DNA of 63,828 bases, the filler included, from Rozella allomycis CSF55 (lineage: Eukaryota): assembly GCA_000442015.1 (NCBI GenBank). It is 9 parts of 9 records of this genome, joined end to end, with 100 filler letters (N's around TTAATTAATTAA, not from the genome) between each part and the next. Parts side by side here need not be neighbours in the genome. Positions count along the whole stretch, not along the records: positions 35,158 to 58,417 come from KE561313.1; 8 more parts are not named here. One strand, given 5' to 3'. Position 1 is the first letter of the stretch. Every line of letters begins with the position of its first letter. The notes under the pieces are model-generated. The model saw only the letters and a program-made list of their open reading frames with translations. It did not search any database and was not told the origin of the DNA. This document shows positions 10,061-61,848 of this stretch, piece after piece. Position numbers and translations under genes: made by a program.

Positions 10061-10070
10061 TCCACGAATC

Positions 10071-33472: not shown

Positions 33473-33572
33473 NNNNNNNNNNNNNNNNNNNNNNNNNNNN
33501 NNNNNNNNNNNNNNNNTTAATTAATTAANNNNNNNNNNNNNNNNNNNNNNNNNNNNNNNNNNNNNNNNNNNN

Positions 33573-38839: not shown

Positions 38840-38977
38840 TTCTCAAACCAGGGTCACTCTCTTCATTATAAAATGAAGCTGGCTTTTTCCATTGCATTAC
38901 ATACATAACTTAACACAAATGTATTACAAAAAGATATTATGCAACAGCACATACATTACTTATTTTATTTACATGAC

Positions 38978-39373
38978 CTATTTTTCTAATGCCTTTTGTA
39001 ACTGTATAGCATCTAGATTGCTGGTTGCAAGCTAATTCAATGAAATAGAATATAATTTACCATATCTAGCAATATGTCTATTTTAAATTTCAACATTTGA
39101 TTTTCTTCCAAAAGCTGTCGGTTAATTTCTTTAAGCTGTGATGCTTTCTTGGTAGCTGTATCGCCCTCTACAGACACTATTTTCAGCATCATTAAATTCA
39201 ATACCAAGATTCCAGCAGTTGTTTTCATAGGAGAGTTGATTGCCATCCAAATTCAAAGTAATCGGAACTCCAATATCTCCAAATTGTATATCCCGAATGT
39301 CCTTAATAGGCGATTTAACGAAACTGTCTGAAAATCTCCTTGTTCTTTCCTTTACTGTTTCCCATGTCGACAT
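38978..39373 (-). CDS. CBY1: Chibby (basal body/ciliogenesis)
   Basis: ITLNLDGNQLSYENNCW and LLEENQMLKFKIDILLDML; two introns. Confidence 0.8.
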
Positions 39374-39472
39374 TTATTCTTTGTTGTTGAAGGTGAAAAC
39401 ATAAACATTGAGATACAATGCAAAATTGATAAAATGAGCTCAAAATTGTTTATTACAAAGGCTTAAAGATGC

Positions 39473-39796
39473 TTAAAATCTTGAATTCCATATCCTATTT
39501 TCTGAATTAGAGTACTTCGATGGAGCAAACGTTCGTCTTTTTGCCGTTTCTTCCAGGCATTCTACTTCCTCAAATAAAATACCAAGCAACCTTTCTTTAA
39601 TGTATTGGGTAGCGTCAACAACATCTTTAATAGAATTATTGTTCTTTTTCTTGTTTTTGGATTTTGTTTGGACACTTACATTTTCTGGCAAACTTAGAGC
39701 AATCGCTAATTCAAGTTCATCTGATTCTTCATAAAGCGGTTTAGATTTTGAACAATTTAAATAATACTTGTCCTGAAATGCAAGGTCATCTTCCAT
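39473..39796 (-). CDS. Hypothetical protein with UIM-like ELELAIALSL motif (5' exons unresolved)
   Basis: ORF track and motif only. Confidence 0.4.
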   Translation of the reverse strand: MEDDLAFQDKYYLNCSKSKPLYEESDELELAIALSLPENVSVQTKSKNKKKNNNSIKDVVDATQYIKERLLGILFEEVECLEETAKRRTFAPSKYSNSENRIWNSRF

Positions 39797-40038
39797 TCTT
39801 AGGTATTCTGCCCCGAAAATAATTTTGAAAAATCACAGTCGCAGCAAATGTTGTTGTGATAATTAAAGTTGAGGTATTGTTGATAATGTGACTGGTAACC
39901 TTGTAATGGCATAGTCATCTGTCATCGTAATTAGTTTATGGGACAAATAAGGTACAAGTCGAAAGCAAATGACGAAAATCATTTTTATTTACATATACAT
40001 ACACACATTAGTATCTTGCTTGTTTCAATGTTTAATCA

Positions 40039-41379
40039 CTAAACATTATCTAATCGGGGAATCTTAGATTTGTATTGCTCCACCAAGTAACGCCATCGCG
40101 GCTTTCTGCATTGTGCATATCTTGAGCCTCCCTTCCTGATGTTTTGTATCCTGATAGATTTTGAACATTGCTTAAGGCCCCCATAAACGTTTGTTAACCA
40201 ATTATCAGAAAACCAGTCCTTTATCTCCACGGGGTAAAGCCATCCAAAGATTTCATAATGTTTTCTAGAAACCATAGCCTGTGTCAATAGTTTACAATTC
40301 CAGACAATATCGCATGGCCCCACAACCCCAAAATCCTCATTCAAAGAAAGAGAACGAGTGAATTTATCACTCCATCCTTCGTCAAGAAATTTAACGTCGT
40401 CATTCAATTGATAAAAATAATCACAACCCTCAGACATGGCCTTTATAAATAAGGAATTCCAAATATATGTCAACCATGCATTGGAATAGGGTAATTCCAA
40501 ATATCTTACCAAAATTCGCTGCCCGGGAAAATATTTTTCAATGTATTTGAGTACTTCAACGCGGTTCTTGTATTTTTTGAAAAAATTATCATTTCTATCA
40601 AAACCAATATACAACACATAACGGAAGTTTTCAAGATCATTGCTACTTATAGTAGAATTTAAGGTTGGAATCAAATATTTTATTAAAGGTAACGATCTGA
40701 TTGATCCTATACCCTTGCCAAGAACTGGAACACCCAACCCAATAGTAGTCTTGAATGATAAAGGGAGTTTAAAGTGATCGTAATTATCAAAATAGTATTT
40801 ATCAAACATTATGTTGCAATACATTTTATGGTATTTTGCCGATTTGGGGTCTAATTGTCGAAAGTACGTTCCGTTTTGAAGAATCTCTTTACTTTCAGTG
40901 AGATTTAGATACGAGAGATGTTTATGTTTTAATATCGAATCAAGATATTTGTATGACAATTTTGATGAAAAAACAGTACCGGCCTTGATTACTACTATGT
41001 TGCTGGTTTCTGTCAATTGATTGGATACTTTGATGAACTGACAATTCTTCCAGAGTAATATTTCTTGATATTCATCAGAGTCAGGTTTGAAAGAAGAAGT
41101 TCCAATAAATATTTTTGGCGGTATCGTTACTCCTCTCGAATAGAAATGAATTGACTAATTTCAAAATATCCATGTCATTACTCCAACTGTCTCTCTAAAC
41201 GATGTAATGTCGCAATCTTCGTGGCATTCTATGAGTATGCTTAATGGTGTTTGCTGGTTCTGCTGTTGATCGCTGGCAGATGAATGTGGAACTTTTAGAT
41301 TCGATAAGGCATATATTGTTAGAAATGTACAAATAAGGGTAACTGATCTTTTCCATGATAATGATTTGATTTTTTTCAT
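40039..41379 (-). CDS. Type II membrane GT-A fold glycosyltransferase
   Basis: N-terminal TM; a 27-nt intron joins the two ORFs in frame; LYIGFD, WNSL, DYFYQLNDDV, DWFSDNW. Confidence 0.75.
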
Positions 41380-41486
41380 ACTTGTTTACTGAAACAAAAT
41401 GTAAACACTAAACATTAAAGTTCAACTCAAAAGAAAAAGACTGGATTCTAAAAAAAATTGATTAAAGAATGAAAATGTTGAAATGT

Positions 41487-42211
41487 TTATTGGACATATT
41501 TGCTCATAAACTTTCTATGAAAATCGCTTCTTATTAGATCGTTTATAAATCTCTTTTTTGGTTTCTGGTCGCTTCCTCGGGCTTGATTTTTAAATATGAC
41601 ATCATCATACCACCTTTAGTCTTAAATTAGTTTTACCATTACTTTTTCTTCAATTTTCCCGTATCTTGATTCAAAAGTGGATTCCCAATCATCGCTCTAT
41701 TTGACTTTTCTCTTTCTTCTCTTTCTAATTCCTCCAATGCCAGCTTTCCTTGCTCTTTCTTCCTTTCTTCTTTGATTTTTTCTAATTCTTTTAACAATTC
41801 TGCGGTATCATCTTCCTCTTCAGCAGAAAAGTCACTATCGTCATCACTGGATTCGTCATCGTCTTTATCCAAATCGAGAATTTCAGGACTTATTTTCAGT
41901 TTTTTATTCGCGGATGTGACTTCAGTTTCTACAGATGAACTTTTGGTGTCTGGTTTTTCGTTTAATAGAAGTGCTTTTAAATCTCTGGCTTGTATTTCAG
42001 CTTTGGTATTTTGGCCTGGTTGTCTTTAATATAAAAATAAATATTTTGGTACCTTAACTTTAATTTTGTGTGAGCAGCCATATCTCTTGCACCAAATTGC
42101 CTTGTAGGAGGTAAACCTTTTTGATCTCTGATGCTATTTCCTCCAAGAGCGTTTGTCCAACTAAATTTAAAGCGAAGGAATATGATACGTTGGTTTATGA
42201 GCAGTTGTCAT
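41487..42211 (-). CDS. CWC15: Spliceosome-associated protein Cwc15
   Basis: [44 protein letters not shown]. Confidence 0.93.
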
Positions 42212-42290
42212 TTAGAGCAGTGTTTAAGCCACGAATTATTCCAATGATAAAATTTAAAAGGAAAAAAGGAAATTAATAGACGAATTATAT

Positions 42291-44916
42291 TTATTGATTA
42301 TAATAATTGTTGAAATCTAAACGAAAAGCCAAAAATTTTAATTCTGGAGAGCCATGGCAAGACAAATCATTCATGAACTGTTTCAGATTTTTCTAATTAA
42401 CAATGAAAGGAACTTCATTTACTTTGAAATTTTGAAGATTTTGTGCAAGATTTTGAAATAGTTTATTGTAGATGAGGGATTCTTGATTTTTAGCCTCTAA
42501 ATCTGCTCGTTCATCTTGTAGTGTTAAACCCCAAAGACCTTGAGAAGAGCGTTCAAATTGCAAGAGTTTTACTTGTTGTCTTCTGGAATGCATTTGATGC
42601 GCTAAATTTAAGAAAGAATGTTGAAGATTTATTTGTTCAAAGATGATAGAAAACAAGAGTGTTAAAGATTGATAATGAGACACCTAGAAGAAACAAGTAA
42701 GAAAGAATTACGTTTAAGAGGCATCCCTTTTCTATTGTAGATAAAAACATGTCGTGAGAAGTGATGAGTTTATCAATGTCGATTTCACGTTGAGAAATTT
42801 TGTCGAGAAAATCAATCCACGACAATTCAATGACTTCAAATTGAATGAAATATTGTAATTGATTTAAAAAATGATTCATTTCAGCCAAGAGAGTGTGAAT
42901 TTTGAGATTTTCAAAATCAATGTCATCTTTCAAGGCTGAATAGATGTGTTTATTAGACATGTGATCTTTATAAATGTTTATTAGATTGTGCTCTAATCTT
43001 TTAATTCTCCAGAGGAATTGAAACAAGCGAAGATATTTCTCCATTGCATTTAAATCTATTATTGTGTTTAAAGGGAAATTTATGTGAAAATCTAAAGAAA
43101 AAACATCCCATCCAGTATCCTGGTTAGAAATTGGCAACAGCCGAACATCCAATCTTTTAAGAATTTCTTCATGATCAAATTGAGCGTTTGAACTTCTGAT
43201 TGCTGTTTCTAAAATGCCTGTTAAATTATGACGAAATAGATTTTCAGCTGATTGATCAAGTCTATTAGAAAGAAGATCCAACATTGTTTGAACAAAATCA
43301 CCTTGCCCCAGCAACAAATATTTCTTCAATGCTTTGAAATTGTCAACTAGACGATATTTCTTCAACAAAATATTCTTCAATTCTTCACTCCTTTCATAAT
43401 GAAGTATTTCTATTTCTTCAGCCATTTCAGAATAAAATTCATCTTTATTATCTTTATTTTAATAGAAATTACAATCACAATTCAAAATATTTTTTTCTGA
43501 AATTTCATGATTCATTGCCCTCATAAAGTTTATTGATTTCCCAAGGCTAAATATTTTCTCTGCTGCATTTGTTGGTATAAAACATGGAAGATATTCTTTT
43601 CTAAAATAATATTTATTTCTCCAAATGTTATCGCTATTATCTTTGCATGCAACAAAAAACTCATCAAATGGATCTTCAACCACCCCTTCATTAATCCACA
43701 AATTTATCATTTTAAAAAATGGCTTGGTGGCTTCATTTATCAATCTTTCCATCAACGTTTTCACTGACACATCCCCATGAGTAGTAAAGTTATACAAAAC
43801 TGTCAACAAATCGCTCCCTTTCAAAACTTTTAATATTTTTAAAAATTTATTACGAGAACAAAGACGGCAAAGTGAAGACAAAAGTTTCAATTTGTAAATT
43901 TCCATTTGACTAGCAGAAATTATTCTCTTCAATGAAAATAAAGAATCGCTATTGAAATGACTCTCCAAAGTCGCAACAAACTTCAAATACGATTGAAGTT
44001 CTTCATTCAATGCAAATGCAAAACTCTTAAACATTAAAACGATTCCAGTTTACTTGATTCATCAATCCAACTGTGTTTCCTTTCTTACTTTGTTCAATGT
44101 ACTCGTTTATAATTTTATAATTCCATCCACTTTGAGCTAATTCCATCAACAATCGTCTTTCAGTATTTCTTAATGGTTTCTTCATTTTGTATTCATTTTG
44201 AACATTATCAAATCCTATAAACATCCCATCAATGCCCTGCATCAAAAATAACCCTTCTCTAACCAATTCACTTTCTTTATTAACTCTTTTCATCTTTATC
44301 TCTTTAAATTTCTCCCAGGCTTTTTCTTGTGATTCTATTTTCTTTTCAGGTATCGGTAATGATACCATTTCTGATTCCTTTAAAATGAATCCAACATTAT
44401 TATTTTACTTTAAAACTAGTTAATTCGAAGCTCTCTAGAAATGATGGACCTTCCTTTGCTCAAATTTTAATACCTAGCTTACTCCAACTTGAACAGGCTC
44501 AACACCACCTCTTTGAATCTGTAAAAATAAATACAGTATTTCCCATTTCTTATCATACTTGACTTTGTCGGCTAACTGTGCAATTCTAATCGCTCCATCC
44601 ATATGTTCTTGTTGTACCACTATTATATGTCATCTGTAAAGATTACTTTTTTTCTGAATAGCTTGGATCACAGAATTTTCATCTTTGACTACAGAAATTG
44701 CGAGTTTTGACGACAAAAGTTGCTGCAAATAAAAGACTAGCGGCTTCAGTCCTTCACTATCTTCTTTTACTTTCAGAAATTGAATCACAAGCTTTTCTAA
44801 CATCATATTCAACACATTTCTGCTGGGTGTTCTATCTTCATAGTTTGCCTTTGTTCCTAACATTCGCATACAATGTGGCTGGGAATCTTCAACCTCTCAA
44901 TCAAACTTACCACCAT
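42291..44916 (-). CDS. TUBGCP3: Gamma-tubulin complex component 3 (Spc98/GCP3)
   Basis: KKYLLLGQGDF, LFRHNLTGILETAIRSSNAQF, GWDVFSL, RLDFN; multiple short introns; start approximate. Confidence 0.9.
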
Positions 44917-45103
44917 TTTTATCTTTATTGTTTATATAGTAATGAATTTCATGTCTGTATCTTTTCGAACTAAAGATTTGCAAGTACACTCAAGTGTTAA
45001 TAAAAAGTTGGCATTATTCTTTTAGCGCTAACATTTTCATTATCCATAATTCATTTCCATAATTAAAGTATTTGATTGTTTCTTTATTTATATTTGTATA
45101 TCA

Positions 45104-46533
<1,430 letters not shown>

Positions 46534-46614
46534 ATAAAACAATACATCGCGTATTAAAAACTTTACTAGTTTTCTTGAAATTCTTTTAATATTTAACACA
46601 TTTTTCAATTCTTT

Positions 46615-47033
46615 TCAAGTCGAAAGATTCTCCATTGATTCAACGATATTCTTCTGAAGCGCAGTGGTCTTTGAAACAAAAACAAAGAACATTACTGTAC
46701 TTGAAAGTTCACTAATTGTAATATCCTTCTTTCCTATAGCGAACAATAGTAGATTTGGCAGTTTGACTTGGGTAGACACCAGAATCCATTCGTCCGATTC
46801 GATGATAATTAGATTTGTGCTATCATCTTGAGTAAACCAACAAGATAGTTGAGCAGAAATCATATCAATTGATACCAACTGACATTTTTCTGCCTTGATA
46901 ACAACAGAAGCGTTTTTGGTGCAAATAAGACTTTAAAGACAGAAAGAGAATAGGTTTACAAAATTTGGGGAATCTTTTCTGAGATAGCAGAGTTTAGGAT
47001 AGAATTTATCTTCTTTGAATTAAGCAGCTGCAT
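46615..47033 (-). CDS. Roadblock-fold protein, LAMTOR2-like
   Basis: Spliced MQLLNSKKINSILNSA...LIIIESDEWILVSTQVKLPNLLLFAIGK...ALQKNIVE follows the LAMTOR2 layout. Confidence 0.5.
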
Positions 47034-47076
47034 CCAACGGAGACGAATTTTACAATTTTGATTGCAAATTTACAAG

Positions 47077-47414
47077 ATGGTAAAACGAACAATCCCACCC
47101 ATTAATTTGGAGCATGCGCCAATGTGTAAAGATTTATATGATGATTATGTCAAATGCTTTCTTGAAAGTGGTATATTTGGTCGATTCTTGTCAGAGTGTA
47201 AGCATAAAAGGAATTTGGTGGAAAGATGTAGGGGTGAGCAAGTAATGATGGAATGTCATGTTAATTAATGTAGTTTGAAATAGCAAGAGAAAAGAATTTG
47301 AAGCTTGGATTAGCAAGGAAAGAGAAGATGGCTCGTTATCGAAAAGTGGAGAATGAATATTTACAAAAAGAAAATGAAAAGGACAAGTTATATAGGTATA
47401 AGAATAACCTTTAA
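47077..47414 (+). CDS. Twin CX9C COX assembly protein (Cmc2-like)
   Basis: C-x9-C...C-x9-C; one intron. Confidence 0.7.
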
Positions 47415-47521
47415 TAAAGTTCAACGTTGACTGTTGATGACAATACAGCAGTTTTTTCATAAAAAAAGAATTAATGACTGGAAATAACATTCATTCTTGA
47501 ATAATGAAATATAAAGTTTTA

Positions 47522-49957
47522 TTAGAAAGACCAATTTGCATCAACAGAAGTAGCCCATTTGAATTTATCCCTTAACCCTTTGTTGAACAATTTTTCGATT
47601 GGCACGCTATGCAATTTAGACCAAGCAAATGAAATTCTAGGATCAATGTAGTTAGTTTTAGATGTAGAGAGGGCAGTAGTTTTATTTTCATCCTAGAGTT
47701 AAAGTTATCATAAAGATTGTTACTCTATCAGTAAGAGCCAATTTCATATTTTCAATTCTGTTTTTTAACGTAAGAATCTTCTTCTCCAACCTTTCAGGAG
47801 AAAGTTTAGTTTTTTTTCGTGGCTCTTCTAGATCTTTCTTTTTTCTTTTTGGACTTGATTCTTCATCTGAGTTTGAATCTTTTTCCACATCTACTTTTTT
47901 ACTTTCTTGGGATTCAGATTTTGTTTGTTCCAATTTTATTTTCTTTTGTTCTATTTTCTTTAATTCCAATTCTTCTTTTTCAATCTTTTTTCTAGCAATG
48001 ACGTCATCATCTAGATCACTTTCCATTTCCGTAATTTCGGGTCTGTTTTTGAATGTTTTTTCTTCAACGAGATCTAATAATTCCAATCTTAAAAGATATT
48101 TTTCATATTTCAACATTAAGATCTGTAAACAATCAGATGAAATTTTACTTTTTCTTTCAATTTTGTCATTGATGTATCATGAGATTTTGGAATAGATCGT
48201 TGATGGTTACATAAAATGGCTACTTGTCTATTCGCTCTGTTATAAGCTAAAATTTTCTCTGCCACCGTCCCATCGCTTGGCGTGTTTTTTAATTCTTCTT
48301 GGAAAGTGAATGACGCATTGAAAGTACGAAAAACTTTAGCAGTTAACCCTGGCATTAAAGATGTTAAATATTTATTCAGAGAGGCAGTCTTTATCAAATT
48401 TAATCATAATAATTACCGTCAAAAGATTAAACAAAGGTTCGTCCTTCTTTTTTCCTTTCTTAAATTCTTTTAAATTTTTGTGAATTATTTTATCAACTTC
48501 GACTTGATTGTAATAACGAATTGAATCTTTCCCAAGGAAATCAAAAATGACTGTGTTATTTTCAGCTAATTCGATATGTTCGCATCGCAATGAACAACAA
48601 CCAACAGTATCCGCTTCATCTTCACCTTTTTCATTCCCAGCTCTAAGCGCAAGTTTATCAATCAACCATAACGCTGTCGCTCTTTGTCTAGTCAACAAAT
48701 CAGAATCACGCAATTCTTCAGTATTTTTCCTCCTTATGTCCAAAACATAATCCTTCAATTCTCTTGCTTTTTCAAATTTCTTAAAATCAGATTGTCCCTT
48801 CAGTGATGAGCCCGCGGCCAAGAAAACATACTTGGGCGTCATATTCACTGTATCTTCCCATGTGGCAAGCCATGTCACTTGGTTATTATGAATTATATCT
48901 CTCCAAGAGTGTCCAGCAGGAGGGTCAGGTATCTTGCATGTCTTTCCTATATTTATGGTGACATCTTCGGGTCGTATTCTTTTCTTTATACAGCCAGCCT
49001 TTGGATGTTTTCCTCGACCTCTGAAAAGTCCAGGAGGTTCAATCCGGAAATTTCCAACCTTCTCAATTCTACCGTCAATACTTGCTGTCATATACTTTTC
49101 TTCCATTTTTAATTTTTCTTGCTTTATTTTCTATCAATATAAATTATGTAATATACCTCCTTTTCTTCCTTTGTCATATTCTTTTTTTCATCTCGCAGCT
49201 TTTGAAAATATTCATACATTAATGTAAAGTCACATTTTTCAAGCTTTAATATCCTTTTTTTCTATCACTAAATAAATGCAGATTTACATTCTCTGATGTC
49301 AGCACAGATCTAAATCCATCAAAAAAGTTCTTATTGAAAATCGGATTCTTCACATAGTCTGTTTCCAGCATGTGAGCATAAAATCCTGCTATTTCCTCTT
49401 CTTCAGCATTTAGTTTGACCATCTCACCTAAAATCATATTCATAAATTGTCGTTACCATCATACTTTAATGGAACCCCATGTGGTTCATACTCTGGAGGA
49501 AACAAGACACCTGAATGTTCAAGCGTTGTCCATTTAATGGAATCGTCAAAATCTCCTTCCCACCACTTATATTCATTGTTTTCTCCGCCGTTATCATTTT
49601 CACTTTGTTCTCCTTTGTCCTCTTTTGTCTTTGCATTTGTAGATTCATTTTTATTGTTCATCTTATTCTTCGTCAATGAACTCAAGGGAATATCATCATC
49701 ACTTTCTACCGAGTTTTTAGTTTTCGCTTTGGGTTTCTTTGTTTCCTTAATATTCGCTTTCTTTCTTGGAGTGCTCTACAAAAACAAAATTTCTTAATGC
49801 TTTACCCTTCGTCGCCTAATCGTAAAATCTTCATCGCTGTCGACTCCTTTAGATTTGCGTCTTTTAATAATTTTAGACTATTGAAAACAAATTTGAAGAT
49901 TACTAAAGGAATGTCTTCTTCACTGGAATCAACAGACGGCGTGTCTTTTGTTGACAT
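47522..49957 (-). CDS. TOP1: DNA topoisomerase I (type IB)
   Basis: [35 protein letters not shown] active-site Tyr. Confidence 0.97.
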
Positions 49958-50038
49958 TGAAAAGAGGTGGCGAAGTCAAAGAAAACCTATTCCTGTTTTA
50001 TATAAAAATAGCGACGCCAATTACAAAATAAATTTGGT

Positions 50039-51787
50039 TTATTCAATTATTTCATACGACCATATTCTTGCTCTACAGTCACCCGATCCAGTTGCGAAAA
50101 GCGAGCCATGAGGACTTTGCGTCACTGAAATCACTAGATGAAAATAGAAAACACATTGTACCAGAATTTTTATGACCTTGAAGAATAGCATGCATTTCAG
50201 CCGTCTGAGGATCCCAAAATTGAACCCTGAATAAAGTCAAAGGATAATAGTTACGATCTGTCTTTGGATCCAGATATGGCCCACATTCCATCATTTGAGT
50301 ACGCAACAGAAAGAACATAATCTTTGTGTCCTTCAAATGTGTGCTTGCAAGCGTCTTTGATTTCAGAGTTTAAATCCCAAATTTTTAAGGTTTTATCAAG
50401 AGATCCAGACAAAATCATCTGACCGTTAGGGGAAAACGCAACTGAATAGACAGAATCTTTATGTCCTTCAAGTTTATCAATCGGCTTTCCACTTTCTGCG
50501 TCCCATAATCGAATCGTTTTGTCGAGAGAGCCGGCGGCTATTAACGTTCCATCGGGACTATACGCTACTGATGTTATTCCGCCCTCTTTTTGACTTCCAT
50601 CGTCACTAGAAAGAATATGAACAGCCTATAAATATATCTAAAAATTATTACTTCCCCAGATTCAACGTCCCAAATCCTGGCAGTCCTATCGCCACTTCCA
50701 GATATGACGAAACGTCCATCTTTCGAAAACTCCAGGGAATAAATATCTTGCTCATGACCGTGAAATATTTTCTTTAGTGTCTTTTCTTCCAAGTCCCATA
50801 TCTATTAACAATTTTTTTTTCGAAAATTTACCCTAACTGCCTTATCTTCAGCCCCGGTAGCAAGAAATTTGCCATCTTTACTGAAAGCCACAGATCTGAT
50901 GTATAAATCTCCTTCTCCAGCATTTTCATCTTCTAATACACTCTCAAAATTTATAATATCCCTTACGCTATCTTATCACCAGTTTCAACATCAAATATTT
51001 GAGTTGTTTTATTACAACCGGTAGCTAAAAATTTGGCATCATCACTAAACTTCACACAGCACACTACACTCAAATGATCAATCGAATGATGTAATTCAAT
51101 GTTAATTTTTCGTGGCATATTTGGATTGTATCTATTGGAAAATAATATTAAGCGTTACATGACATTCCAGTCATTTCCCTCTTTTTTATGAGTAGTAGGA
51201 ACTTGGCTCGGGTCGATATTATGAAAAAATGATTTCTTTGGATCAGGCAAAGCCTTCACAACTTGGGGTTGTGACTTTGGCACCATAGGTTTCACAGGAA
51301 ATGTTGGTGGTACAGAATTTGATTGAATATCTTATTAAAAATAAATACAATAATTTACTTGACGCTGGTAAAGAAGGCAGAGAAACTGACGATGAACTTT
51401 CTTCCAACCTAGGGCGTTTTAGGGTTACTGCTGGATCTCCCCCTCTCGCTTCTAGTTCTTTTTTTAATTTAAATATTTCGTCCTCATATCTTAAAAAATC
51501 AGACTCTACATTTTACTGTTGTTTCATTTTTAGATGAGCTCTCTCCAGCTCATAGACGTTTTTTTGGATCTGGATAATTTCATTTATTTGAGATTGAACT
51601 AAAAATAAGACAGACTATTTTTACATACCTAGAACTACTAAAAATATCAGCAAGTACCTTTATGTTCAAAAGATTCTCGTTGCACCGAAAGGTCTTGTGT
51701 AGATGTCTCATATTCCTGTTTTAGTGAATCCAATAGCTCATAAAAACGACTGGCTGAAGTTGTAGCCGCTGGCCGATGCCCATACAT
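50039..51787 (-). CDS. TUP1: General transcriptional corepressor Tup1
   Basis: Tup_[38 protein letters not shown]40 repeats; includes twin introns 51599-51657. Confidence 0.92.
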
Positions 51788-52068
51788 GTTCTTACCCTTG
51801 TCAAAACATTCTCACGCGTTGATAAATTTTTTTTCAGTGATCTAATTAGTCTCAAATTAAAATTTGGGAAATATATTTATCTCCAGAATCTCTAAAGACA
51901 AATTCCTTTTACAACATCTTGTAGTGCTAAATATTTCTACTATTGACATCGACCTTAAATTTAGAGTGAATTTTTTATATTTTAATTAATCCAATTCGTT
52001 TAATTTATAATTTTATTGTCTATTTTGCCCCGGTTTTGTACGGGCTAAAGTATCTTGAAAATTCGCAA

Positions 52069-52569
52069 ATGACAAGACCAACTGAGAAAAGGCATGTTTC
52101 GAATGGCCAAAGAAGCGATGACAGAAACTCAAATTTTCAAAATAAAAGAAGAATATTTGTGGATAATAAAAAAAGTTTGAGTGAGAGGTAAAGAATTAAT
52201 CATCTTTAATATAGGTAAATACCTTAGTAGTTACTTGAAAGGTTCCAGTCAGTTTCAGAGGAGCGTCGCAAAAATATGATAAGTAGAAAACGCGATAGGT
52301 TTTCAGTACCTGAAAAAATGCCAATGAAAAGGGACTTGAGGCCAAGAGGCTCGAATTCAAATTTTCACGGCAGAGGAAATTTTAGAGGTTCATCAAGTGC
52401 ATCAAGAAGCAAAAATCTATCCAGAATCTCGAGAAATAATAAAATGCCTCTTGACAAAGAAAAGCTCGATGCGGATTTAGACAAATACATGATGAAAAAT
52501 GAGAACTTCGCAAAGGCAAAGCTAGACGAAGAGTTGGATAATTACATGGCTATGGACGAGAAAGAATAA
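52069..52569 (+). CDS. CHTOP/FoP-duplication RNA-binding protein
   Basis: SLSERF motif after splicing, RG-rich middle, duplicated LDADLDKYM/LDEELDNYM. Confidence 0.75.
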
Positions 52570-52633
52570 ATAAATGCCAATTTTTACCAATCTTCTTTGT
52601 TTATTTTGTTACTTCGCCACATTGACATAAGTT

Positions 52634-53375
52634 ATGCATTTATTTGGTAGGGCGAAGCCAAAAAGCACTCCTAAAGATGCTATAGCAACTCTAAGAGATG
52701 CACTGGAAATGTTAGATAAACGAGAAAAACACCTTGAGGTGAGGTATAATAATGAAACAAAAATGGCCCAGCAAAATGCTAAGAATAAAACAGGTAAAAA
52801 CATTTTCCCTCAAATTACACAGGTAAATTAAAACCTCTTAAGTTAGTTAGTGGCTCTAATGGCGCTAAAACGCAGAAAACAAATCTCAAATGAAATGGCC
52901 AAGGTTTCGGCGTCCAAAATGTCTTTAGAAGCACAAATGATGACGTTGGAAAATGCGAATCTGAATCTGGAAACCCTTAAGGCAATGAAGACAGGTTCTG
53001 AAGCACTGAAAAACATCCATGGTGCCATGTAATATATTCTCAAAGCTGTTATTTAGGGATATAAACAAGGTAGATGCAACCATGGATGAAATTCGGGACC
53101 AAATGGATATTGCCAATGAAATTTCTGAGGCAATCGCACAACCTCTTGGAAATGTTCTTGATGAAGACGAGCTATTAGAAGAGCTAGAAGAATTGGAGGC
53201 CGAAGCCTTGCATCAAGAAATGACTGAAAAGCCCACAACTGTCCCTAATCTACCTAAACCTGGTAATAGTCGATTATTTCATATTACAACAGTTAAAGTC
53301 GGACAATCCTCATCTGAGGAGAAGTTGGAAGATGAAGATGCAGAATTAGAGTTACTACGTGCATCCATGACTTAA
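52634..53375 (+). CDS. SNF7: ESCRT-III subunit Snf7/Vps32
   Basis: AIATLRDALEMLDKREKHL, ALKRRK, DKVDATMDEI, DEDELLEELEEL. Confidence 0.93.
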
Positions 53376-53568
53376 TTAAACAAAAACAATAAATAAACAT
53401 AATACCAGCTCTCCAGCTCTAAAATATAGTAATTTTTGCTATGATTTGTCTAATGTAACAAAGATGGTAGGTACTCATAATTTTTCATATATATATATTT
53501 AATATGCATTATCAGATTAAACATTTTATGATTCTCATTTCAGACAAAAGGTAAACAAACCACGGTCA

Positions 53569-54888
53569 ATGAGGACAGTCAGTCTGGTAATGGTTGCATT
53601 GCTTATGTTCCCAAATACGGTATACACATCTTCATGGCTTTCATGTCCCTTATCTTTTAATCCAAACAGCAAGAGAGGTGGAGAGTTGATAGGACCATGC
53701 GAAGTTCCTGTAGAACCAGTCGCCGTAACCCAAGTCCGGGCGGGTGATAGACTTAAAGTTGGTTGGCCTTCAAATAATAACGGCGGGGGATATGTTCGCT
53801 TATCTTTGGTGCCGGAATCTCAGTTCGATGATGCATCCGCTTTCGAAAAAAATGTGCTCAAATTAGGTTGTTTTGGACATGACCAACGTTCGGGTAAATT
53901 TAAATCCGGTGTATGTGTTCATCCTTGCAATGGTAGGCCGGGCTGTCAATTTCAGTCTTCTGTAAATGACAATGAACGTTATGATACAACAATTTCAATT
54001 CCTTTCAATATTCCCAATGGTTTATACATTTTGCAATGGGTTGCATTGATAGGAAATAATGTTAGGCCATACTACAGTTGTGCTAAACTTTCAGTAACAG
54101 GCGGGAATGTCAGTATTAATTGTAACGTGCCAAAGTCCATCAACATTCCAACTTGTATAAAGGCTTCCGGACCAACATCGAGTCAGATTTTGCCGGAAGG
54201 ATCAAAATATGGAAACTTCTGCTATGGTTCTCAAGGATCATCTAATATTGATTATAACATTAGCCAGAAACCTGCAAATGCAAATTGTGATCCCAGGGTT
54301 TCTTGTTCTTTATCTGTTTCCGAAAGTATTTGTAAACAAGAAATAACGCAAAATTTTGATTCCAACAACCCCTTTATTAAAAGTTGTCCCATTGATTCGA
54401 CTGCAACAAAGACTACGACAATGTCATCAACTGTTACGTCTACCCTTACTTTATCCAGTAGCACATTTACTACACGTCCATCGACGACTACATTGATTAC
54501 AACAGTAACAAAAAGTACTACCAAGATTTCATCGACTACTTCTGCAACTAAAACTACTATTCCGACAACTACTGCAACAACAGTAATTAAAACTACTACA
54601 AAGATTACGTCAACTACTGAAACTACAACAAACGTTCCATCAACCTCTCCAACCAAGACTACCAATTTACCGACATCTACTCCTCCATCTCCGACCTGCC
54701 CAATAAATGGACAAAAGTGCAACATATCTCCAGATAAATTCTTCTGCGTAGGAAAGGCTATTGGAAGATGTGTTTCTAATCAATATGTAGTGTTCAACTG
54801 CGCGCCTGGGACAAAATGTAGAATTGTAAGTGGAACGGCGATATGTGATTTTGATGACAAAAAACCTGACGCGCCTTGTTTATTTTAA
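53569..54888 (+). CDS. Secreted EnP1-like / LPMO-like Cys-rich protein with Thr-rich linker and CBM19-like C-terminal domain
   Basis: Signal peptide; AGDRLKVGW..YVRLSLVPE..FEKNV..YILQW..YYSCAKLSVTGG; CVSNQYVVFNCAPGTKC. Confidence 0.65.
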   Translation: MRTVSLVMVALLMFPNTVYTSSWLSCPLSFNPNSKRGGELIGPCEVPVEPVAVTQVRAGDRLKVGWPSNNNGGGYVRLSLVPESQFDDASAFEKNVLKLGCFGHDQRSGKFKSGVCVHPCNGRPGCQFQSSVNDNERYDTTISIPFNIPNGLYILQWVALIGNNVRPYYSCAKLSVTGGNVSINCNVPKSINIPTCIKASGPTSSQILPEGSKYGNFCYGSQGSSNIDYNISQKPANANCDPRVSCSLSVSESICKQEITQNFDSNNPFIKSCPIDSTATKTTTMSSTVTSTLTLSSSTFTTRPSTTTLITTVTKSTTKISSTTSATKTTIPTTTATTVIKTTTKITSTTETTTNVPSTSPTKTTNLPTSTPPSPTCPINGQKCNISPDKFFCVGKAIGRCVSNQYVVFNCAPGTKCRIVSGTAICDFDDKKPDAPCLF

Positions 54889-54924
54889 TAAAATATAAAT
54901 ATTATAAGAAATGTTCGGTGTTTA

Positions 54925-56897
54925 TTAAGTTTGAGTTAAGTTGTCTATCAGATGATTGTGTTCTACGGAAGGAGGCTTGTTATCATGACATGTTTCAATT
55001 GACTTATACCAGGCATCTTCCATTATGTCGTTAACGTTTATTCTCTTTTTACAATCCGGTTCAAGAATCTTAAACATAAGTTCTTTGGCGCCACTAGGTA
55101 ACCGGGCTAATGGTTCAAACTGAATACCTCTGTGCTCAACGAAATAACAATAATTAGGGTCTTCAATAGTAGCTTTGGCCCAAGGTATACCCCTAAAAGT
55201 TGTTGCGTAATAAATGATCCCACACGCCCAAATGTCAACTAACCGAGCGTCATACTCAGTTTGGGTGAATTCTTCTGGTGCAATGTACGGAGTTGAGCCA
55301 CAGACCCCTTTAGATAAATGAGGCTTCTTCTCCCAGCATATTCTAAACACTTCGGAGACTCCAAAGTCAGTTATCTTTAGCCTTCCATGCATGTCAATCA
55401 ATAAATTTTCAGGTTTCAAATCTCTATGAGCAACACCAACTGAATGAAGGTAACTAACTCCTTGAATAAGTTGCTTGAAACAGCAATCAATTTCTACAAC
55501 CGTCATCTGCCCACCACGAATAATCGAATACAAATCTCCACCTTTTGACAAACAAAGGAAGGTTATTTACCTGAATAGTATTCCATCACCTCATACCAAT
55601 GGCTTCCATCACGAATAATATCCAAAGTTTCAACAACATTCATATGATGCAACATGGACCCTATGCAATATTCGGAAGTCATTTTCTTTATGTAGTCTCG
55701 ATACGCTTCATCCTTTTTCTTCTTTCGAAATTCTTTTATTGCAAATACTTTCTCTCCAGCTCCACGCCTAGCTAATCTCACAGTACCACCAGCGCCTTTT
55801 CCTATAACCTTAGTGCTAAATATGTGATAGTCATCGAATGTATGAGGTTCCATTGGAAGTAGTTTAGGGTTGGAATTGGAAGCGGAATCATCATCATGTG
55901 CTTGTTGAGTTTGCTTTCTTTTAATCTTTGGTGAATTCAAAAGTTCTTTGATTGGATCTAAAATTCCTTTTTTATGCACTGAAACATCATGATGAGATCT
56001 AAACAAGTCAGTTTGACTGCCGCTTTTCGATAAAGAGGGTTCTGGAGTTATTCCACGGGAATTATCGTCATCGTTTGAAGGGCTCAACTTGAGTGTATTC
56101 TTATCTTTATCATGATCGTTATGCGAATGAAAATCACTCTGGGAGGATGAGTTTAATAAATGACTAATATGAGTCTTGGAAAACAATTTCTTCATGTCAC
56201 TTTGCTCATGAACAGAATCAGATGACGATCGTTCAGTTTTTCGTAAAATATTCGGTGATGCATCCCTGGAGGAATGACTTGTTATTCCATTAGATCTTGA
56301 AGAAGCGGCGCGCTTTAGTTTCGGTGAAGTAGCACGGCTAGAATCCGCCGGTGTATGAGCCCCAGATAAACTAAATAACTTAAACTTAAACCGATTTTTC
56401 TTTGTGCCTTCTTGTGTAGTTGACTCTTCACTCTCAATTGATTGTTCGCATTCCATTGTATGGTCTTTTTGCCGGTGGACGCTGGACTCATGACTTTCAG
56501 ATGAAATGCAACCAATCTACTTACCTTTCGAATGAATTGAATCAGGTATAATTGAATGAGATGAATCAGCATTCAATAACTCTTTAATATCTTCATTTTC
56601 ATCGACAGCGCTATTAGTGCTTTTTATAAACGACGGCAACTTTTTCATACTGCTATTGCTTCTTTTTCTGTCCAAATATTTTTCCAAATTATTTTTGGAG
56701 TTATTCCAATGAATTATATTTCCAAGCAAATCATAGGCCACGTCCGAACCAATGAGGAATGGCGTTTCGCATTTACAAACCTCAGCGCACGATGAACAAA
56801 GCCAAAAAGCATCAGAGAATTGGCCTCTGGCGGAAAATTCAGCACTAGTTAATGCGGCAGTACATATCAATGGCATATTAAATTCCAACAAGCCCAT
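54925..56897 (-). CDS. Ser/Thr kinase, Sat4/Hal4/Npr1-type; 5' extent uncertain
   Basis: [44 protein letters not shown]. Confidence 0.85.
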
Positions 56898-56981
56898 CTC
56901 GACGCCAACGAAAATGACGCCGATTGGCGAATGGAAAATTCGGTTTTAGAAAAAACAAAGCAATACGATATAAAATATTTA

Positions 56982-57855
56982 TTATTGCACAAAACTATTA
57001 TCTGAGTATTTTTCTATTCTATGCAGAATTTCTATACAATCAAACATATACTGATACCTTCGATACTTTTCGAGGATACTTGAAAATCTTCACAGAACTT
57101 ATATCAGAATTGTATCAGTTGGCTTACCAATATTGGTTTTATATTTATGCCTTGAGAATGTAAACTTGCTAAAATGCAACTTACTGCTATCTCCCTTCCC
57201 GAGTATTTGGTGTAAAACCTGTCAAGGAAGCTTTGTGACAAAAATAAATGAAATTACGAATCATTAGCTATTCTCATGCAATATTCAATTAAAGAATGAG
57301 CAAAGCGCTCAAAGTCATATGCTGAATTAAGCAAGTAACCGGTATTTACTATTATTAAACTTTTTTTTGACGGGCAATAATGTATCACGTAAGTATCGCA
57401 TGATATAAAAATGAGGCATATCTACGTCAAGATCAAAATTGAGAATGCGCAAAACTAACAGTTCGCTTTCGAAAATAGAATCCCTGATCTTCCAGTATTC
57501 CTATATTATAGAAGTAGTAAATTTACATCGCCAATAGATATGGGTTGGTTCCCATCATGAAAAATAACTCTATCTTATTTCGATGTCAGCATCCCTACCT
57601 ATATGCTGAATTTATAATGTTTCGAAGGTTATGTAGTTCTTCTGTAGTTTTGGTACCCAGATAAAAGCACGTAACCGCTAAAAGATACTCCTCAACGTGG
57701 AAGTCGTTAGCCTTTTCCATGTACTCTCTTACTCTATGGAAATAATATTGAGAAGTACATATCGTTATTGTCGAGCTAATTATAAAGAAATTTTTCATTT
57801 ACACTCTTAACGATTTCCCAAGGTAACGTATCAGGAGGACTGATGAGAGTCTCAT
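56982..57855 (-). CDS. Transcriptional cyclin, cyclin Q/FAM58-like
   Basis: YYFHR, CFYLGTKTTE, EYWKIRDSIFESELLVLRILNFDL; several 26-30 nt introns. Confidence 0.7.
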
Positions 57856-58009
57856 GTCTAAGCCTTCTGCCGGTAATGCAAAAAAATCACTATTCAGGCA
57901 AAAGTATCTGGATTAGGATTATATTCACAAATCACAATTATAATGCATTCGATAAATTTGATTTCAAGTGCCGAAATACTCTCAACATCAATGACATGGG
58001 TCACAACGT

Positions 58010-58417
58010 ATGAAAAGGAAATTACATGACTCCAACCTTACTGTCTTTGACATAAAGGAGTTAAATTGTAATTACAAGGTTCATTATCAACAGCCCTTGC
58101 TACTTGGTTTTTTCAGCTATGATAAAGAAAGAGAACTCCGTATTGGGTGTCAGTCTTCATTAAATGTGTACCACGAAGCTATTTTGCCTGTTGATTTAAA
58201 CTCAAATCAAGAAAATTTTATACAAAAAAGGGAGCAACCAGAGCAACTTGATGCAGTATTTGAGACTTTGCTTTATAACAAAAAAGTTCTGATGCATTAT
58301 TTGCAAAAACGACCTACGATAATTTCTTGGAGAGGAATTATGACAAAACTGATGAACGCAGAAGATTCAAAGAATGATTTTTCTCTTAAAATAGTGTCCG
58401 TTAATGTAAGTCTTTAT
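58010..58417 (+). CDS. RAI1: Rai1/Dxo decapping exonuclease (5' part, truncated by gap)
   Basis: YQQPLLLGFFSYD, ISWRGIMTKLM. Confidence 0.75.
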
Positions 58418-59707
58418 NNNNNNNNNNNNNNNNNNNNNNNNNNNNNNNNNNNNNNNNNNNNTTAATTAATTAANNNNNNNNNNNNNNNNNNNNNNNNNNN
58501 NNNNNNNNNNNNNNNNNAAATAATTAAACAATGCAATCAGACTTTAAAAATACATGTACGCATGAAACACCAATTTATAATTCAACGACAAATATGATAT
58601 GACTTATATTTCTATCAACTCAATTAAATGCCTTTAATAACAAAGTAAACTCATTGTAAATTAATTACCTTCTATTTTGAAACAACCATCATGTTTTCTT
58701 TAACAGGAGCCCTACGTGAAACCCTAATAGGCATAAAAGCTTCGAATATTTCTTTCATAAATATGTATATAATATTCATATTATATATTTACTATAAAAA
58801 TTATTGTAATCTAGTTATTGTCTTTTTGGTGTTCTTCTTATGTCTTTGAAATTTCGTATTTCTTTTTGATTTAAAAAGAAACTACTTTTTGTTATTCTAT
58901 ATTCGCTAAAGCTTTCGGATAAAAATGTTACAAAGCATTTTACTATGAAAATTATTCCACGCTATTATAGTATGTTCTTCCAAAAGCTACGTTCACCAAG
59001 GGCAGCATTTTTCGGATAACAGCTGCAAAAGTCGAACAAACTTTAGAGCGCATTATTATATGATTTATATGATCTCATTAATTTAGATTTTGTCTAATCC
59101 ATAGAACGCAGGAGGACCTCTTCTTTCATGGTTGTTTCAAAATAGACGATAATTTATAAGAAATAATTTAAATTTGTTAAAAGAGGCATATTAATAGCTT
59201 CCTATCAACAGATATTGCTATTTAGAGAGGTTTAGTACAAGGTGATCTCATATATTTCTTTTCATCGTTGCATGATTGAACGAACCATTGTTAAAATTTG
59301 TTCACAAATAGATTAATTGTTTTAATATTAGATCTCCATATTTGATATTTTCTGCTCCATTTCCAATTCAAAAAGATTTATAAATTGTTATCAACCACGA
59401 AAAGGCTTTTGGCGGGTCCTAAATCTAAAGTTTTGCTGTTTTCAAATAATTCTAAAAGTATTTTTATTCTGGCCAAACATTACACAAAAATTAAGGTTTT
59501 ATAATTTATTATCAAATAAATATTTACTCGGCATGTTTCCCATGTCTCAGTAGATAAATTATACTGACTAAAACAAAGAGACAATATAAGAAGTTGTTTT
59601 CAGTGANNNNNNNNNNNNNNNNNNNNNNNNNNNNNNNNNNNNNNNNNNNNTTAATTAATTAANNNNNNNNNNNNNNNNNNNNNNNNNNNNNNNNNNNNNN
59701 NNNNNNC

Positions 59708-60255: not shown

Positions 60256-61644
60256 ATGGAAGATTCACGATCATATGATTTAGACGTTATATTAAATAGT
60301 AGCGGGCCTTTTACTGGAGAGGGATTTGAATCTTCATCCTATGTAAGTATTTATAACGTTTTGAAAGAAGGATGATTCTTTCCTCAAGATAGCAAAAATA
60401 TTAGTAATCGGCGCTGGTGGTCTTGGTTGTGAACTTTTGAAAGACTTAGCATTGTCTGGTTTTACCGACATACACGTTATCGATATGGACACTATTGACG
60501 TTTCAAACTTAAACCGTCAGTTTCTTTTTACGTAAAATATGATTATATTTAATAAAGAGAAAAAGATGTAGGAAACCCCAAGTCTGTGGTTGCCGCCCAA
60601 GCGATTAATCGAGCAATACCAAGTGCTAGCATAACTCCACACTATTGCAAAATACAAGAAAAAGATGAATCATTCTATTCTCAATTTAATGTTATTGTTT
60701 GCGGATTAGATTCAGTTTCAGCACGCAGATGGATTAATGCATTATTGTGCCAGATGGTGAAATATGACGATGAGGGCAATGTTATACCGGATTCTATCAT
60801 TCCCTTGATTGATGGCGGAACAGAAGGATTTAAGGGACAAGCCAGGGTTATTTTGCCTAAGTTATCTTCGTGCTTTGAGTGTTCATTAGAAATGTTTCCA
60901 CCCCAAACAACTTTTCCGATGTGCACTATCGCGAACACTCCAAGACTACCAGAACATTGCATTGAATACGCCAGTGTCGTTGAATGGCCAAAGAATTTTC
61001 CAAGTAACATAACAATGTATTTGTGCAATAGATGTAAAAATGGATAAGGATAATGCGGAGCATATGAAGTGGCTTTATGAAACAGCGCTAACACGAGCCA
61101 ATCAGTTTAATATAAAAGGAGTTACCTACAGACTAACTTTGGGAGTAATTAAAAACATTATTCCAGCTATTGCCTCTACTAATGCCATCATCGCTGCTGC
61201 TTGTAGCTTAGAAGTGTTTAAACTTGTAACAAGAACATCAAACTTTCTTAATAACTACATGATGTATAATGGAATCGACGGGGTCTACACATATTCTTTT
61301 GAATATGAAAGAAAAGCGGATTGTGTAGCATGTGGGAATGACGCAAGTACTCTCTCTGTGGACCCTGCAATCAGCTTTGGTGATTTCATTGATCATTTCA
61401 TTCAAAATCATCCATCGTAAGTGCAACTTGTATTCTATATAGAAAATTTAAAACGCCTAGTTTCAGAACAGCTGAAAAGACTTTGTACATGCAAACTCCA
61501 CCATCACTAGAAGAAGCCACAAGACCAAATCTTTCGAAAAGTCTAAGAGAGCTTCTTCAAGAAAACACGACAATGATTGTTACTGACCCAAACCTACCAA
61601 TTATCTTATCCTTGACTATAAATTTTAAAAGGGAAAGACAATAA
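60256..61644 (+). CDS. UBA3: NEDD8-activating enzyme E1 catalytic subunit
   Basis: [49 protein letters not shown]; four introns. Confidence 0.95.
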
Positions 61645-61848
61645 AATAGTTTATTTAAATTAATCTATTTCCATTGATGTGATTGCTTGCTTGTAGATAC
61701 TCATGCTTCGTGCGACAAATGCTTCTAAGTGATAGACAGCCTTGCTACNNNNNNNNNNNNNNNNNNNNNNNNNNNNNNNNNNNNNNNNNNNNTTAATTAA
61801 TTAANNNNNNNNNNNNNNNNNNNNNNNNNNNNNNNNNNNNNNNNNNNN

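What the first reader, a model, noticed from the sequence alone, without database searches (positions are those of the whole stretch)
52188..52241. Twin introns in the CHTOP-like gene
GAG AG|gtaaagaattaatcatctttaatatag|gtaaataccttagtagttacttgaaag|G TTC (27+27 nt) creates SLSERF. Retaining either half gives an immediate TAA. The halves are not similar to each other, so this is not a recent tandem duplication.
Basis: seen in the sequence. Interest (0 to 1): 0.7.

Follow-up and report, generated by a model that had tools for sequence, protein, structure and literature searches.

The report
Two abutting mini-introns in Rozella
A small RNA-export-type gene of the fungal parasite Rozella allomycis is interrupted by 54 bases that read as two complete 27-base introns placed end to end, a rare layout that hints at splicing in two rounds, though no RNA data were available to prove it.

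Summary
The window is Rozella allomycis. A CHTOP/FOP-like gene (ATG 52069, stop 52567-52569) is interrupted by 54 nt (52188-52241). Their exact removal recreates the family's N-terminal motif, and keeping either half, or both, gives a stop after 40 residues.

The gap has an internal AG|GT at 52214|52215, making two 27-nt pieces. Both pieces score like ordinary introns of this window, which are 21-32 nt long (mean 27.2). A single intron with a random intron-like interior would contain so good an internal splice-site pair in about 3 of 10,000 trials. The halves are no more alike than unrelated introns, so this is not a recent duplication.

The two neighbouring genes show the same layout: Tup1 with 29+30 nt and Snf7 with 29+28 nt. 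An unidentified metagenome relative has one 330-nt intron at the same codon and phase, so the site is probably old.

No RNA data could be laid on the locus. Removal in two reactions is therefore inferred, because one-step removal gives the same mRNA.

This scan has already reported abutting mini-introns elsewhere in this genome. I found no paper describing them. Best reading: two serially spliced mini-introns, with confidence about 0.6.

The parts
52069..52187 (+). Exon 1 of the CHTOP/FOP-like gene: ATG, 39 codons and the first 2 bases (AG) of an Arg codon
   Evidence: Translation. It is identical to residues 1-39 of the public protein P0003.
52188..52214 (+). Mini-intron unit 1, 27 nt, donor GTAAAG, acceptor TATAG
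   Evidence: Sequence. Signal score 14.8, at or above 84% of the leave-one-out scores of 32 single introns, and in the top 0.18% of 3885 GT..AG candidates.
52215..52241 (+). Mini-intron unit 2, 27 nt, donor GTAAAT, acceptor GAAAG. It abuts unit 1 with no exon base between them.
   Evidence: Sequence. Signal score 12.7, at the 53rd percentile of single introns and in the top 0.82% of candidates.
52242..52569 (+). Exon 2: the last base of the Arg codon, 108 codons and a TAA stop. It carries the FoP_duplication domain.
   Evidence: Translation. Pfam PF13865, E 3.3e-15, 56.9 bits against a cut-off of 24.6.
51599..51657 (-). Second example, in the neighbouring Tup1-like gene: a 59-nt gap made of 29 + 30 nt with an internal AG|GTA
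   Evidence: Sequence. The Pfam Tup_N profile runs on across the gap: exon 1 residues 14-42 match profile 1-32, and exon 2 residues 1-26 match profile 35-60. Chance of so good an internal split: 150 of 200,000.
52794..52850 (+). Probable third example, in the neighbouring Snf7 gene: a 57-nt gap made of 29 + 28 nt with an internal AG|GTAA
   Evidence: Two homologs at 60% identity align better with this model than with a 24-nt intron plus a 10-residue insert (scores 282 against 264, and 280 against 261). Weak point: unit 1 scores only 3.3, below all 32 training introns.

Best explanation
The 54 nt at 52188-52241 are two complete, independent spliceosomal mini-introns of 27 nt each, lying end to end with a zero-length exon between them. 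They sit in the Arg codon of the conserved N-terminal motif of a CHTOP/FOP-like gene. Shown: the 54 nt must be absent from the mRNA, each half has the length and end signals of this genome's normal introns, and the internal acceptor-donor pair is not a chance feature. Inferred: the spliceosome treats each half like any other 27-nt intron. If unit 1 is transcribed and removed first, exon 1 (ending in AG) is joined directly to the GTAAAT donor of unit 2. Unit 2 is then removed in a second reaction. This is the logic of recursive splicing at a ratchet point, at miniature scale. The opposite order works equally well. Every partly spliced form carries an immediate TAA. Also inferred: the site is an old intron position that came to hold two units. 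That could have happened by insertion or duplication of an intron at an existing splice junction long ago, or by new internal splice sites arising in a formerly longer intron.
For: 1. Exact removal is needed. P0003 equals exon 1 + Arg + exon 2. The motif L.[ED]RF lies across the junction and is found in 8 of 30 representative homologs (alignment of P0003 with 19 of those 30). Of 14 frame-preserving GT..AG choices, 52188-52241 is the shortest. It is also the only one that gives both the motif and the stretch that follows it in homologs.
2. Intron size class. The 34 single introns from my gene parse are 21-32 nt long, mean 27.2, sd 2.3 (search range 20-34). A parse allowing 18-130 nt still peaks at 26-29 nt, with 30 of 92 predicted gaps there. 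Eleven junctions anchored by one Pfam profile running across them are 26-32 nt.
3. Both halves score as good introns, 14.8 and 12.7, against a training mean of 11.6 and sd of 3.2.
4. Chance. An internal split as good as observed arises in 57 of 200,000 random interiors.
5. Recurrence. The neighbouring Tup1 and Snf7 genes have gaps of 59 and 57 nt, each with an internal AG|GTA near the middle. I found no homology-supported gap of 33-53 nt.
6. Old site. Metagenome locus L006 has a 330-nt intron in the same Arg codon and phase.
Against: No RNA evidence of any kind was available. One run was listed, holding next to none of the stretch's words, and laying it gave no record at the locus. One-step removal gives the same mRNA, so protein homology cannot separate the two readings. 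The public model treats the gap as one intron. My signal model is weak (GTAA, AT-rich, A at -4, AG). About 0.2-0.8% of all GT..AG candidates in the window score as high as the halves. My unit-limited parse broke the gene rather than choosing the stack. The flank-based scan for stacks gave 0 and 3 hits on reversed control sequences. One of its 4 hits in the window was false: at 34060-33999 the first 'unit' is WD40 coding sequence. The halves of the Tup1 and Snf7 gaps score lower, between 3.3 and 11.4. I could not show that this spliceosome is unable to remove 54 nt at once.
Confidence: 0.6

Rival explanations
1. It is one 54-nt intron removed in a single reaction, using the donor at 52188 and the branch site and acceptor near 52241. 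The internal AG|GTAAAT is an unused relic of how the intron arose, for example an old duplication or the fusion of two introns.
For: The mature mRNA and protein are identical to the two-step case. The public gene model uses a single 54-nt intron. As one unit, the 54 nt score 14.7 on the outer signals. Spliceosomes in general handle 54 nt easily (established knowledge). This model still accounts for the non-random internal site if that site is historical.
Against: Unit 1 carries a full set of signals at the 84th percentile of ordinary introns and is transcribed first, so there is no evident reason for its acceptor to be ignored. All 3 of 3 homology-supported double-length gaps in the window keep an internal AG|GTA, although the halves have diverged to background similarity, which suggests the sites are maintained. 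No supported intron between 33 and 53 nt was seen.
Confidence: 0.3
2. The region is not spliced. Translation starts at the in-frame ATG at 52276, and the upstream reading frame is not part of the protein.
For: An in-frame ATG exists at 52276-52278. The FoP_duplication domain lies wholly in exon 2. There is no RNA evidence for splicing.
Against: Removing exactly 54 nt recreates an N-terminal family motif that spans the junction. The motif is seen in 8 of 30 homologs and in metagenome loci L005 and L006. L006 has an intron in the same codon. Both ends of the gap carry consensus signals.
Confidence: 0.04
3. Other boundaries are used. Candidates are the 72-nt GT..AG at 52181-52252, which my first parse chose, and the 111-nt option at 52188-52298.
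For: Both keep the frame open. The 111-nt option also recreates the six-residue motif.
Against: The 72-nt option destroys the motif and scores 1.1, below all training introns. The 111-nt option deletes the residues after the motif that align with homologs. Both lengths lie far outside the size class.
Confidence: 0.03

Closest known systems
Recursive splicing at zero-nucleotide-exon ratchet points (Drosophila Ubx and 196 further sites; bioRxiv 10.1101/006163, abstract seen in the listing)
   Same: An acceptor is directly followed by a donor (AG|GT) inside an intervening sequence. After the first reaction the upstream exon is joined to a working donor, and the rest is removed in a second reaction. 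No exon base is left behind.
   Different: Per that abstract, ratchet points subdivide large introns. Here the whole structure is 54 nt and each step removes a complete intron of the genome's normal size. Here the downstream unit can also be removed first. Stepwise removal is shown by experiment in flies and only inferred here.
Stwintrons, the spliceosomal twin introns of fungi (PMC7138796, passages read; PMC9024468, PMC8469720 and PMC5639578, abstracts in the listing)
   Same: These are complex intervening sequences in fungi, built of more than one U2-type intron unit and removed by consecutive reactions. The Lipomyces paper proposes that such structures can arise by new splice sites appearing inside an existing intron, which is one possible origin here.
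   Different: In a stwintron the internal intron interrupts a donor, branch or acceptor element of the external intron, so the external one only exists after the first reaction. Here neither unit interrupts a signal of the other. Both are complete in the primary transcript and lie side by side, not nested.
Intron gain by tandem duplication of an AGGT-containing segment
   Same: It would produce two introns, or an intron pair, joined at AG|GT.
   Different: It predicts similar copies. The two halves here are no more alike than random intron pairs, so any duplication would have to be old.
Vertebrate CHTOP autoregulation by retention of intron 2 and nonsense-mediated decay (PMC5175361, abstract and passages read)
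   Same: It concerns the same protein family. Retention of an early intron exposes a premature stop at the 5' end of the intron, as it does here (AG|G TAA).
   Different: I could not test whether human intron 2 is the intron at this motif. No regulation is shown in Rozella.

Membership tests
Rozella-type spliceosomal mini-intron (tested for each half) | GT at the 5' end and AG at the 3' end | tested here: met
   GT at 52188 and 52215, AG ending at 52214 and 52241.
Rozella-type spliceosomal mini-intron (tested for each half) | Length inside the genome's narrow size class | tested here: met
   Each half is 27 nt. The 34 single introns in the window are 21-32 nt, mean 27.2.
Rozella-type spliceosomal mini-intron (tested for each half) | Local end signals (GTAA donor, T-rich tail, A at -4) | tested here: met
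   Scores of 14.8 and 12.7 against a training mean of 11.6 and sd of 3.2.
Rozella-type spliceosomal mini-intron (tested for each half) | Excised from RNA as a unit of its own | not testable with these tools
   No RNA holder was listed, and laying run X1 gave nothing at the locus.
Recursive splicing at a zero-nucleotide exon | Acceptor directly followed by a donor inside the intervening sequence | tested here: met
   TATAG|GTAAAT at 52214|52215. It is non-random: 57 of 200,000 random interiors do as well.
Recursive splicing at a zero-nucleotide exon | A working donor remains after the first step | tested here: met
   By sequence, exon 1 ends in AG, the same two bases as the end of unit 1, so the donor context of unit 2 is unchanged after unit 1 is removed.
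Recursive splicing at a zero-nucleotide exon | Serves stepwise removal of a very long intron | tested here: not met
   The whole gap is 54 nt.
Recursive splicing at a zero-nucleotide exon | Intermediates or step-specific lariats observed | not testable with these tools
   No RNA data.
Stwintron (nested spliceosomal twin intron) | The internal intron interrupts the donor, branch or acceptor element of the external intron | tested here: not met
   The boundary lies between a complete acceptor and a complete donor, and each unit scores as a whole intron in the unspliced sequence. Definition taken from the abstracts and the passages.
CHTOP / FOP (Friend of PRMT1) protein family | C-terminal FoP_duplication domain | tested here: met
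   PF13865, E 3.3e-15, 56.9 bits against a cut-off of 24.6. Also found on P0003.
CHTOP / FOP (Friend of PRMT1) protein family | N-terminal L.[ED]RF motif | tested here: met
   Present in P0003 across the splice junction, and in 8 of 30 representative homologs.
CHTOP / FOP (Friend of PRMT1) protein family | Central Arg/Gly-rich region | tested here: inconclusive
   Homologs have long RG/RGG stretches. P0003 has only a short GRG-type stretch in that part of the alignment.

The most novel reading that the evidence does not exclude
Rozella's spliceosome works with a hard length ceiling of roughly 32 nt. Any longer intervening sequence must then be built from self-contained mini-introns laid end to end and removed one after another through zero-length exons. 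On this reading intron lengths are quantised at about 27, 55, 83 nt and so on, and introns can multiply in place at old intron sites. In this gene the twin occupies an ancient site where retention gives an immediate stop. Vertebrate CHTOP uses such a layout for autoregulation, so two obligatory reactions could also act as a gate for decay-coupled control.
Probability: 0.25. Interest if true: 0.85.

Novelty: new variant of a known kind. Interest (0 to 1): 0.6.

Why it matters
If the halves are spliced separately, Rozella would offer the smallest known natural case of splicing through a zero-length exon. It would be evidence that a spliceosome can be tuned to one intron length so tightly that longer gaps exist only as chains of units.

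It would also show a way for introns to multiply at existing splice junctions, which bears on the open question of how new introns arise.

There is a practical consequence too. Gene finders that expect either one long intron or none can mis-model such genes. For Snf7, a 24-nt intron with a 10-residue insert is an equally open-frame but less homologous model.

If the 54 nt are instead removed in one step, the finding shrinks to a historical footprint with no present function.

Tried and rejected
- **RNA evidence.** The look-up of sequencing runs listed no RNA holder. It listed only run X1, with the same species label and a 0.00 share of the words. Laying X1 on 38500-58400 placed 15 short records of about 30 nt, none at the locus and with no splice joints.
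- **Whole genome.** None is held for this window, so no genome-wide length statistics were possible.
- **First intron scan.** A crude open-frame scan gave no usable length peak, and the ORF-pair listing was too noisy.
- **Gene parse with long introns allowed.** It chained genes through intergenic DNA. For this gene it picked a 72-nt GT..AG, which I rejected because of motif loss and a score of 1.1.
- **Unit-limited parse.** It did not select any stack and broke the genes instead.
- **Stack scan.** It found 4 loci with GTA donors and units of 22-33 nt. Reversed-sequence controls gave 0 and 3 hits. One locus, 34060-33999, was rejected as coding WD40 sequence.
- **Pfam on Snf7 exon 1 alone.** No Snf7 hit. 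The PDB search aligned it to yeast Snf7 only up to residue 45, so the Snf7 stack rests on two homologs.
- **Metagenome relatives.** 9 loci were found, none a close Rozella relative. Only 2 of the 9 show the N-terminal motif.
- **Other RNA features.** No Rfam match near its threshold in 51000-54000. There is no unusual RNA fold around the gap, z -0.02.
- **Literature.** The searches were 'Rozella allomycis'+'intron', 'Rozella'+'short introns', 'Rozella'+'intron length', 'abutting introns', 'tandem introns' and 'Rozella allomycis'+'RNA-seq'. None gave a paper describing end-to-end spliceosomal mini-introns.
- **Supplements of PMC8042348.** The held files contain no row with 'intron'. I therefore could not assign its reported 29-bp minimum of the fungal intron medians to Rozella.

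Full report
**What is there.** The window comes from Rozella allomycis. The translation of exon 2 finds a 148-residue public protein, P0003, at 100% identity. It is named as a hypothetical protein of R. allomycis CSF55, and as 'Chromatin target of P...' by UniRef.

The gene starts at ATG 52069. Exon 1 (52069-52187) gives 39 residues and two further bases. Exon 2 runs from 52242 to the TAA at 52567-52569 and carries the Pfam FoP_duplication domain (E 3.3e-15).

Between the exons lie 54 nt, 52188-52241. P0003 is exactly exon 1, one Arg and exon 2.

**Must the 54 nt be removed?** A full HMMER search with P0003 found 30 other representatives at E up to 0.001. Eight of the 30 hold the motif L.[ED]RF near their N-terminus. 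In an alignment of P0003 with 19 of them, the Rozella motif lines up with it. In Rozella the motif spans the gap, which sits in phase 2 of the Arg codon.

I enumerated every GT..AG pair that joins the two frames without a stop and found 14.
- The 54-nt choice is the shortest. It is the only one that gives both the motif and the following residues seen in homologs.
- The 72-nt choice (52181-52252), which my first parse preferred, destroys the motif and has poor signals, scoring 1.1.
- A 111-nt choice recreates the six-residue motif but deletes the aligned stretch after it.
- Removing only unit 1, only unit 2 or nothing gives a stop after 40 residues.

**The intron size class.** No whole genome is held, so I used the window. 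I wrote a codon-usage dynamic-programming parse.
- With introns of 18-130 nt allowed, it peaks at 26-29 nt (30 of 92 predicted gaps). The rest is flat noise, largely from chaining across intergenic DNA.
- With introns limited to 20-34 nt, and after filtering on flank scores, 34 single introns remain. They are 21-32 nt long, mean 27.2, sd 2.3, and 32 of the 34 start with GTA.
- Pfam hits on 106 open frames and on single exons anchor 11 junctions where one profile runs on across the intron. Those 11 introns are 26-32 nt.
- DP joins of 38, 47 and 50 nt (60520-60557, 30918-30964, 61417-61466) resolved into 26-nt introns when checked against profile coordinates.

I found no homology-supported gap of 33-53 nt. 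My parse cannot exclude such gaps in genes without Pfam anchors.

**Are the halves whole introns?** I built a position weight model from the 32 GTA-start single introns, using the first 9 and last 14 positions. It shows GTAA, a T-rich tail and A at -4.
- Leave-one-out scores of the training introns have mean 11.6 and sd 3.2.
- Unit 1 scores 14.8, at or above 84% of them. Unit 2 scores 12.7, at or above 53%.
- Among 3885 other GT..AG candidates of 22-33 nt in the window, 0.18% reach the score of unit 1 and 0.82% reach that of unit 2.

The model carries little information, so this shows compatibility, not proof.

**Is the internal AG|GT chance?**
- With the interior shuffled, an AG|GTA split giving two 22-33-nt parts appears in 1.1% of 20,000 mononucleotide shuffles. 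It appears in 5.1% of 4,000 dinucleotide shuffles, which keep the junction's own dinucleotides and so are conservative.
- With interiors drawn from a first-order model of real intron interiors, any AG|GT split appears in 0.9% of 200,000 trials. One whose weaker half scores as well as observed appears in 57 of 200,000.

**Recurrence next door.**
- Tup1-like gene (minus strand). A 59-nt gap at 51657-51599 splits into 29 + 30 nt at AG|GTA. The Tup_N profile is continuous across it: exon 1 matches profile positions 1-32, exon 2 matches 35-60 and exon 3 matches 62-77, with the split codons filling the missing positions.
- Snf7 gene. A 57-nt gap at 52794-52850 splits into 29 + 28 nt. An alternative model with a 24-nt intron and ten extra residues is also open. 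Two homologs at 60% identity align better with the stacked model, 282 against 264 and 280 against 261. Unit 1 of this gap scores only 3.3, so I call this example probable.
- For these two gaps, the chance of an internal split as good as observed is 150 and 922 of 200,000.
- A scan for stacks with GTA donors found 4 loci. The fourth, 34060-33999, is false, because its first 'unit' encodes WD40 residues. The same scan on reversed sequences gave 0 and 3 hits, so homology vetting is needed.

**Origin.** The two halves are no more alike than random pairs of single introns. Their score is 3.0, and 65% of 496 random pairs score at least as high. The same is true of the Tup1 and Snf7 pairs.

A scan of metagenome contigs with the family alignment gave 9 loci, and 2 of the 9 show the N-terminal motif. 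L005 has it uninterrupted. L006 (GC 0.36, organism unknown) has a 330-nt GT..AG intron (2187-2516) in phase 2 of the same Arg codon.

The position is thus probably older than Rozella's intron miniaturisation. Either a second unit was added at an existing junction, or a longer intron acquired internal sites. The Lipomyces stwintron paper proposes the second route for its own cases (PMC7138796, passages read).

**Mechanism.** Unit 1 is transcribed first and is indistinguishable from a normal intron. The simplest expectation is that it is spliced as one. After that, exon 1, which ends in AG like unit 1, sits on the donor of unit 2, and unit 2 is then removed. The reverse order and one-step removal give the same mRNA.

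What is shown is the anatomy, its non-randomness and the need for exact removal. What is inferred is serial excision. I put serial excision at about 0.6 and one-step removal at about 0.3.

**RNA evidence.** None was available. The single listed run holds next to none of the stretch's words, and laying it gave nothing at the locus. No Rfam family and no unusual fold offer another reading.

**Comparison with what is known.** The layout works like recursive splicing at zero-nucleotide exons (bioRxiv 10.1101/006163, abstract seen in the listing), but at 54 nt rather than in very long introns. It is not a stwintron, because no splice signal is interrupted (definitions from the abstracts and the passages).

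PMC8476143 (passages read) gives Rozella 2.5 introns per kb and does not contain the word 'tandem'. PMC8042348 (passages read) reports fungal intron medians from 29 to 197 bp, but I could not see its table. Six searches found no description of end-to-end spliceosomal mini-introns.

Vertebrate CHTOP autoregulates by retaining intron 2, which has a stop at its 5' end (PMC5175361, abstract and passages read). Whether that is the same intron site is untested.

**Earlier notes of this scan.** One search showed that the scan had already reported abutting mini-introns at other places in this genome: 28+28 nt, 53 nt, and arrays of six and seven units. This report adds a further locus with dissimilar halves at an apparently ancient site, and two more examples in the adjacent genes.

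Noticed in passing
window 51599-51657 (- strand): The Tup1-like gene has a 59-nt gap made of 29 + 30 nt units with an internal AG|GTA. The Pfam Tup_N profile is continuous across it.
   Followed up: yes
window 52794-52850 (+ strand): The Snf7 gene has a 57-nt gap made of 29 + 28 nt units. A rival model with a 24-nt intron and ten extra residues fits homologs less well. Rozella's own Snf7 protein did not appear among the hits of the protein search, so the public model may be missing or different.
   Followed up: partly
window 33999-34060 (- strand): This looks like a 30 + 32 nt stack, but the first 'unit' is coding sequence of a WD40-repeat gene. Only the 32-nt intron at 33999-34030 is real. 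It is a useful warning case for pattern scans.
   Followed up: yes
window about 10035-15636 (+ strand): A copia-type LTR retrotransposon with broken frames and many single N positions. It has gag, Pol_BBD, integrase, SH3_retrovirus and RVT_2. A chromodomain hit (E 5e-9) follows at 15442-15636, which is unusual for a copia-order element.
   Followed up: no
window 53521-54885 (+ strand): An intron-less 455-residue frame with a weak AA9 (LPMO-like) Pfam hit below the cut-off (E 5.6e-5, 23.6 against 27.8 bits). It also has a long Ser/Thr-rich linker and a Cys-rich tail, so it may be a secreted protein of the parasite.
   Followed up: no
window 26557-29601 (- strand): An intron-less 1015-residue elongation factor 3 gene (HEAT_EF3, two ABC domains, chromodomain insert), in contrast to its intron-rich neighbours.
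   Followed up: no
L006 2187-2516: A metagenome contig of an unidentified eukaryote (GC 0.36) carries a CHTOP-like gene with a 330-nt intron in the same Arg codon and phase as the Rozella twin. A stop follows directly if the intron is retained.
   Followed up: partly
window 1739-1838, 9263-9362, 30024-30123, 33473-33572, 35058-35157, 58418-58517, 59607-59706, 61749-61848: Eight places each hold two 44-N blocks separated by 12 bases, and single Ns are scattered between 10994 and 26440. These are masked or unresolved stretches, and I did not look into them.
   Followed up: no
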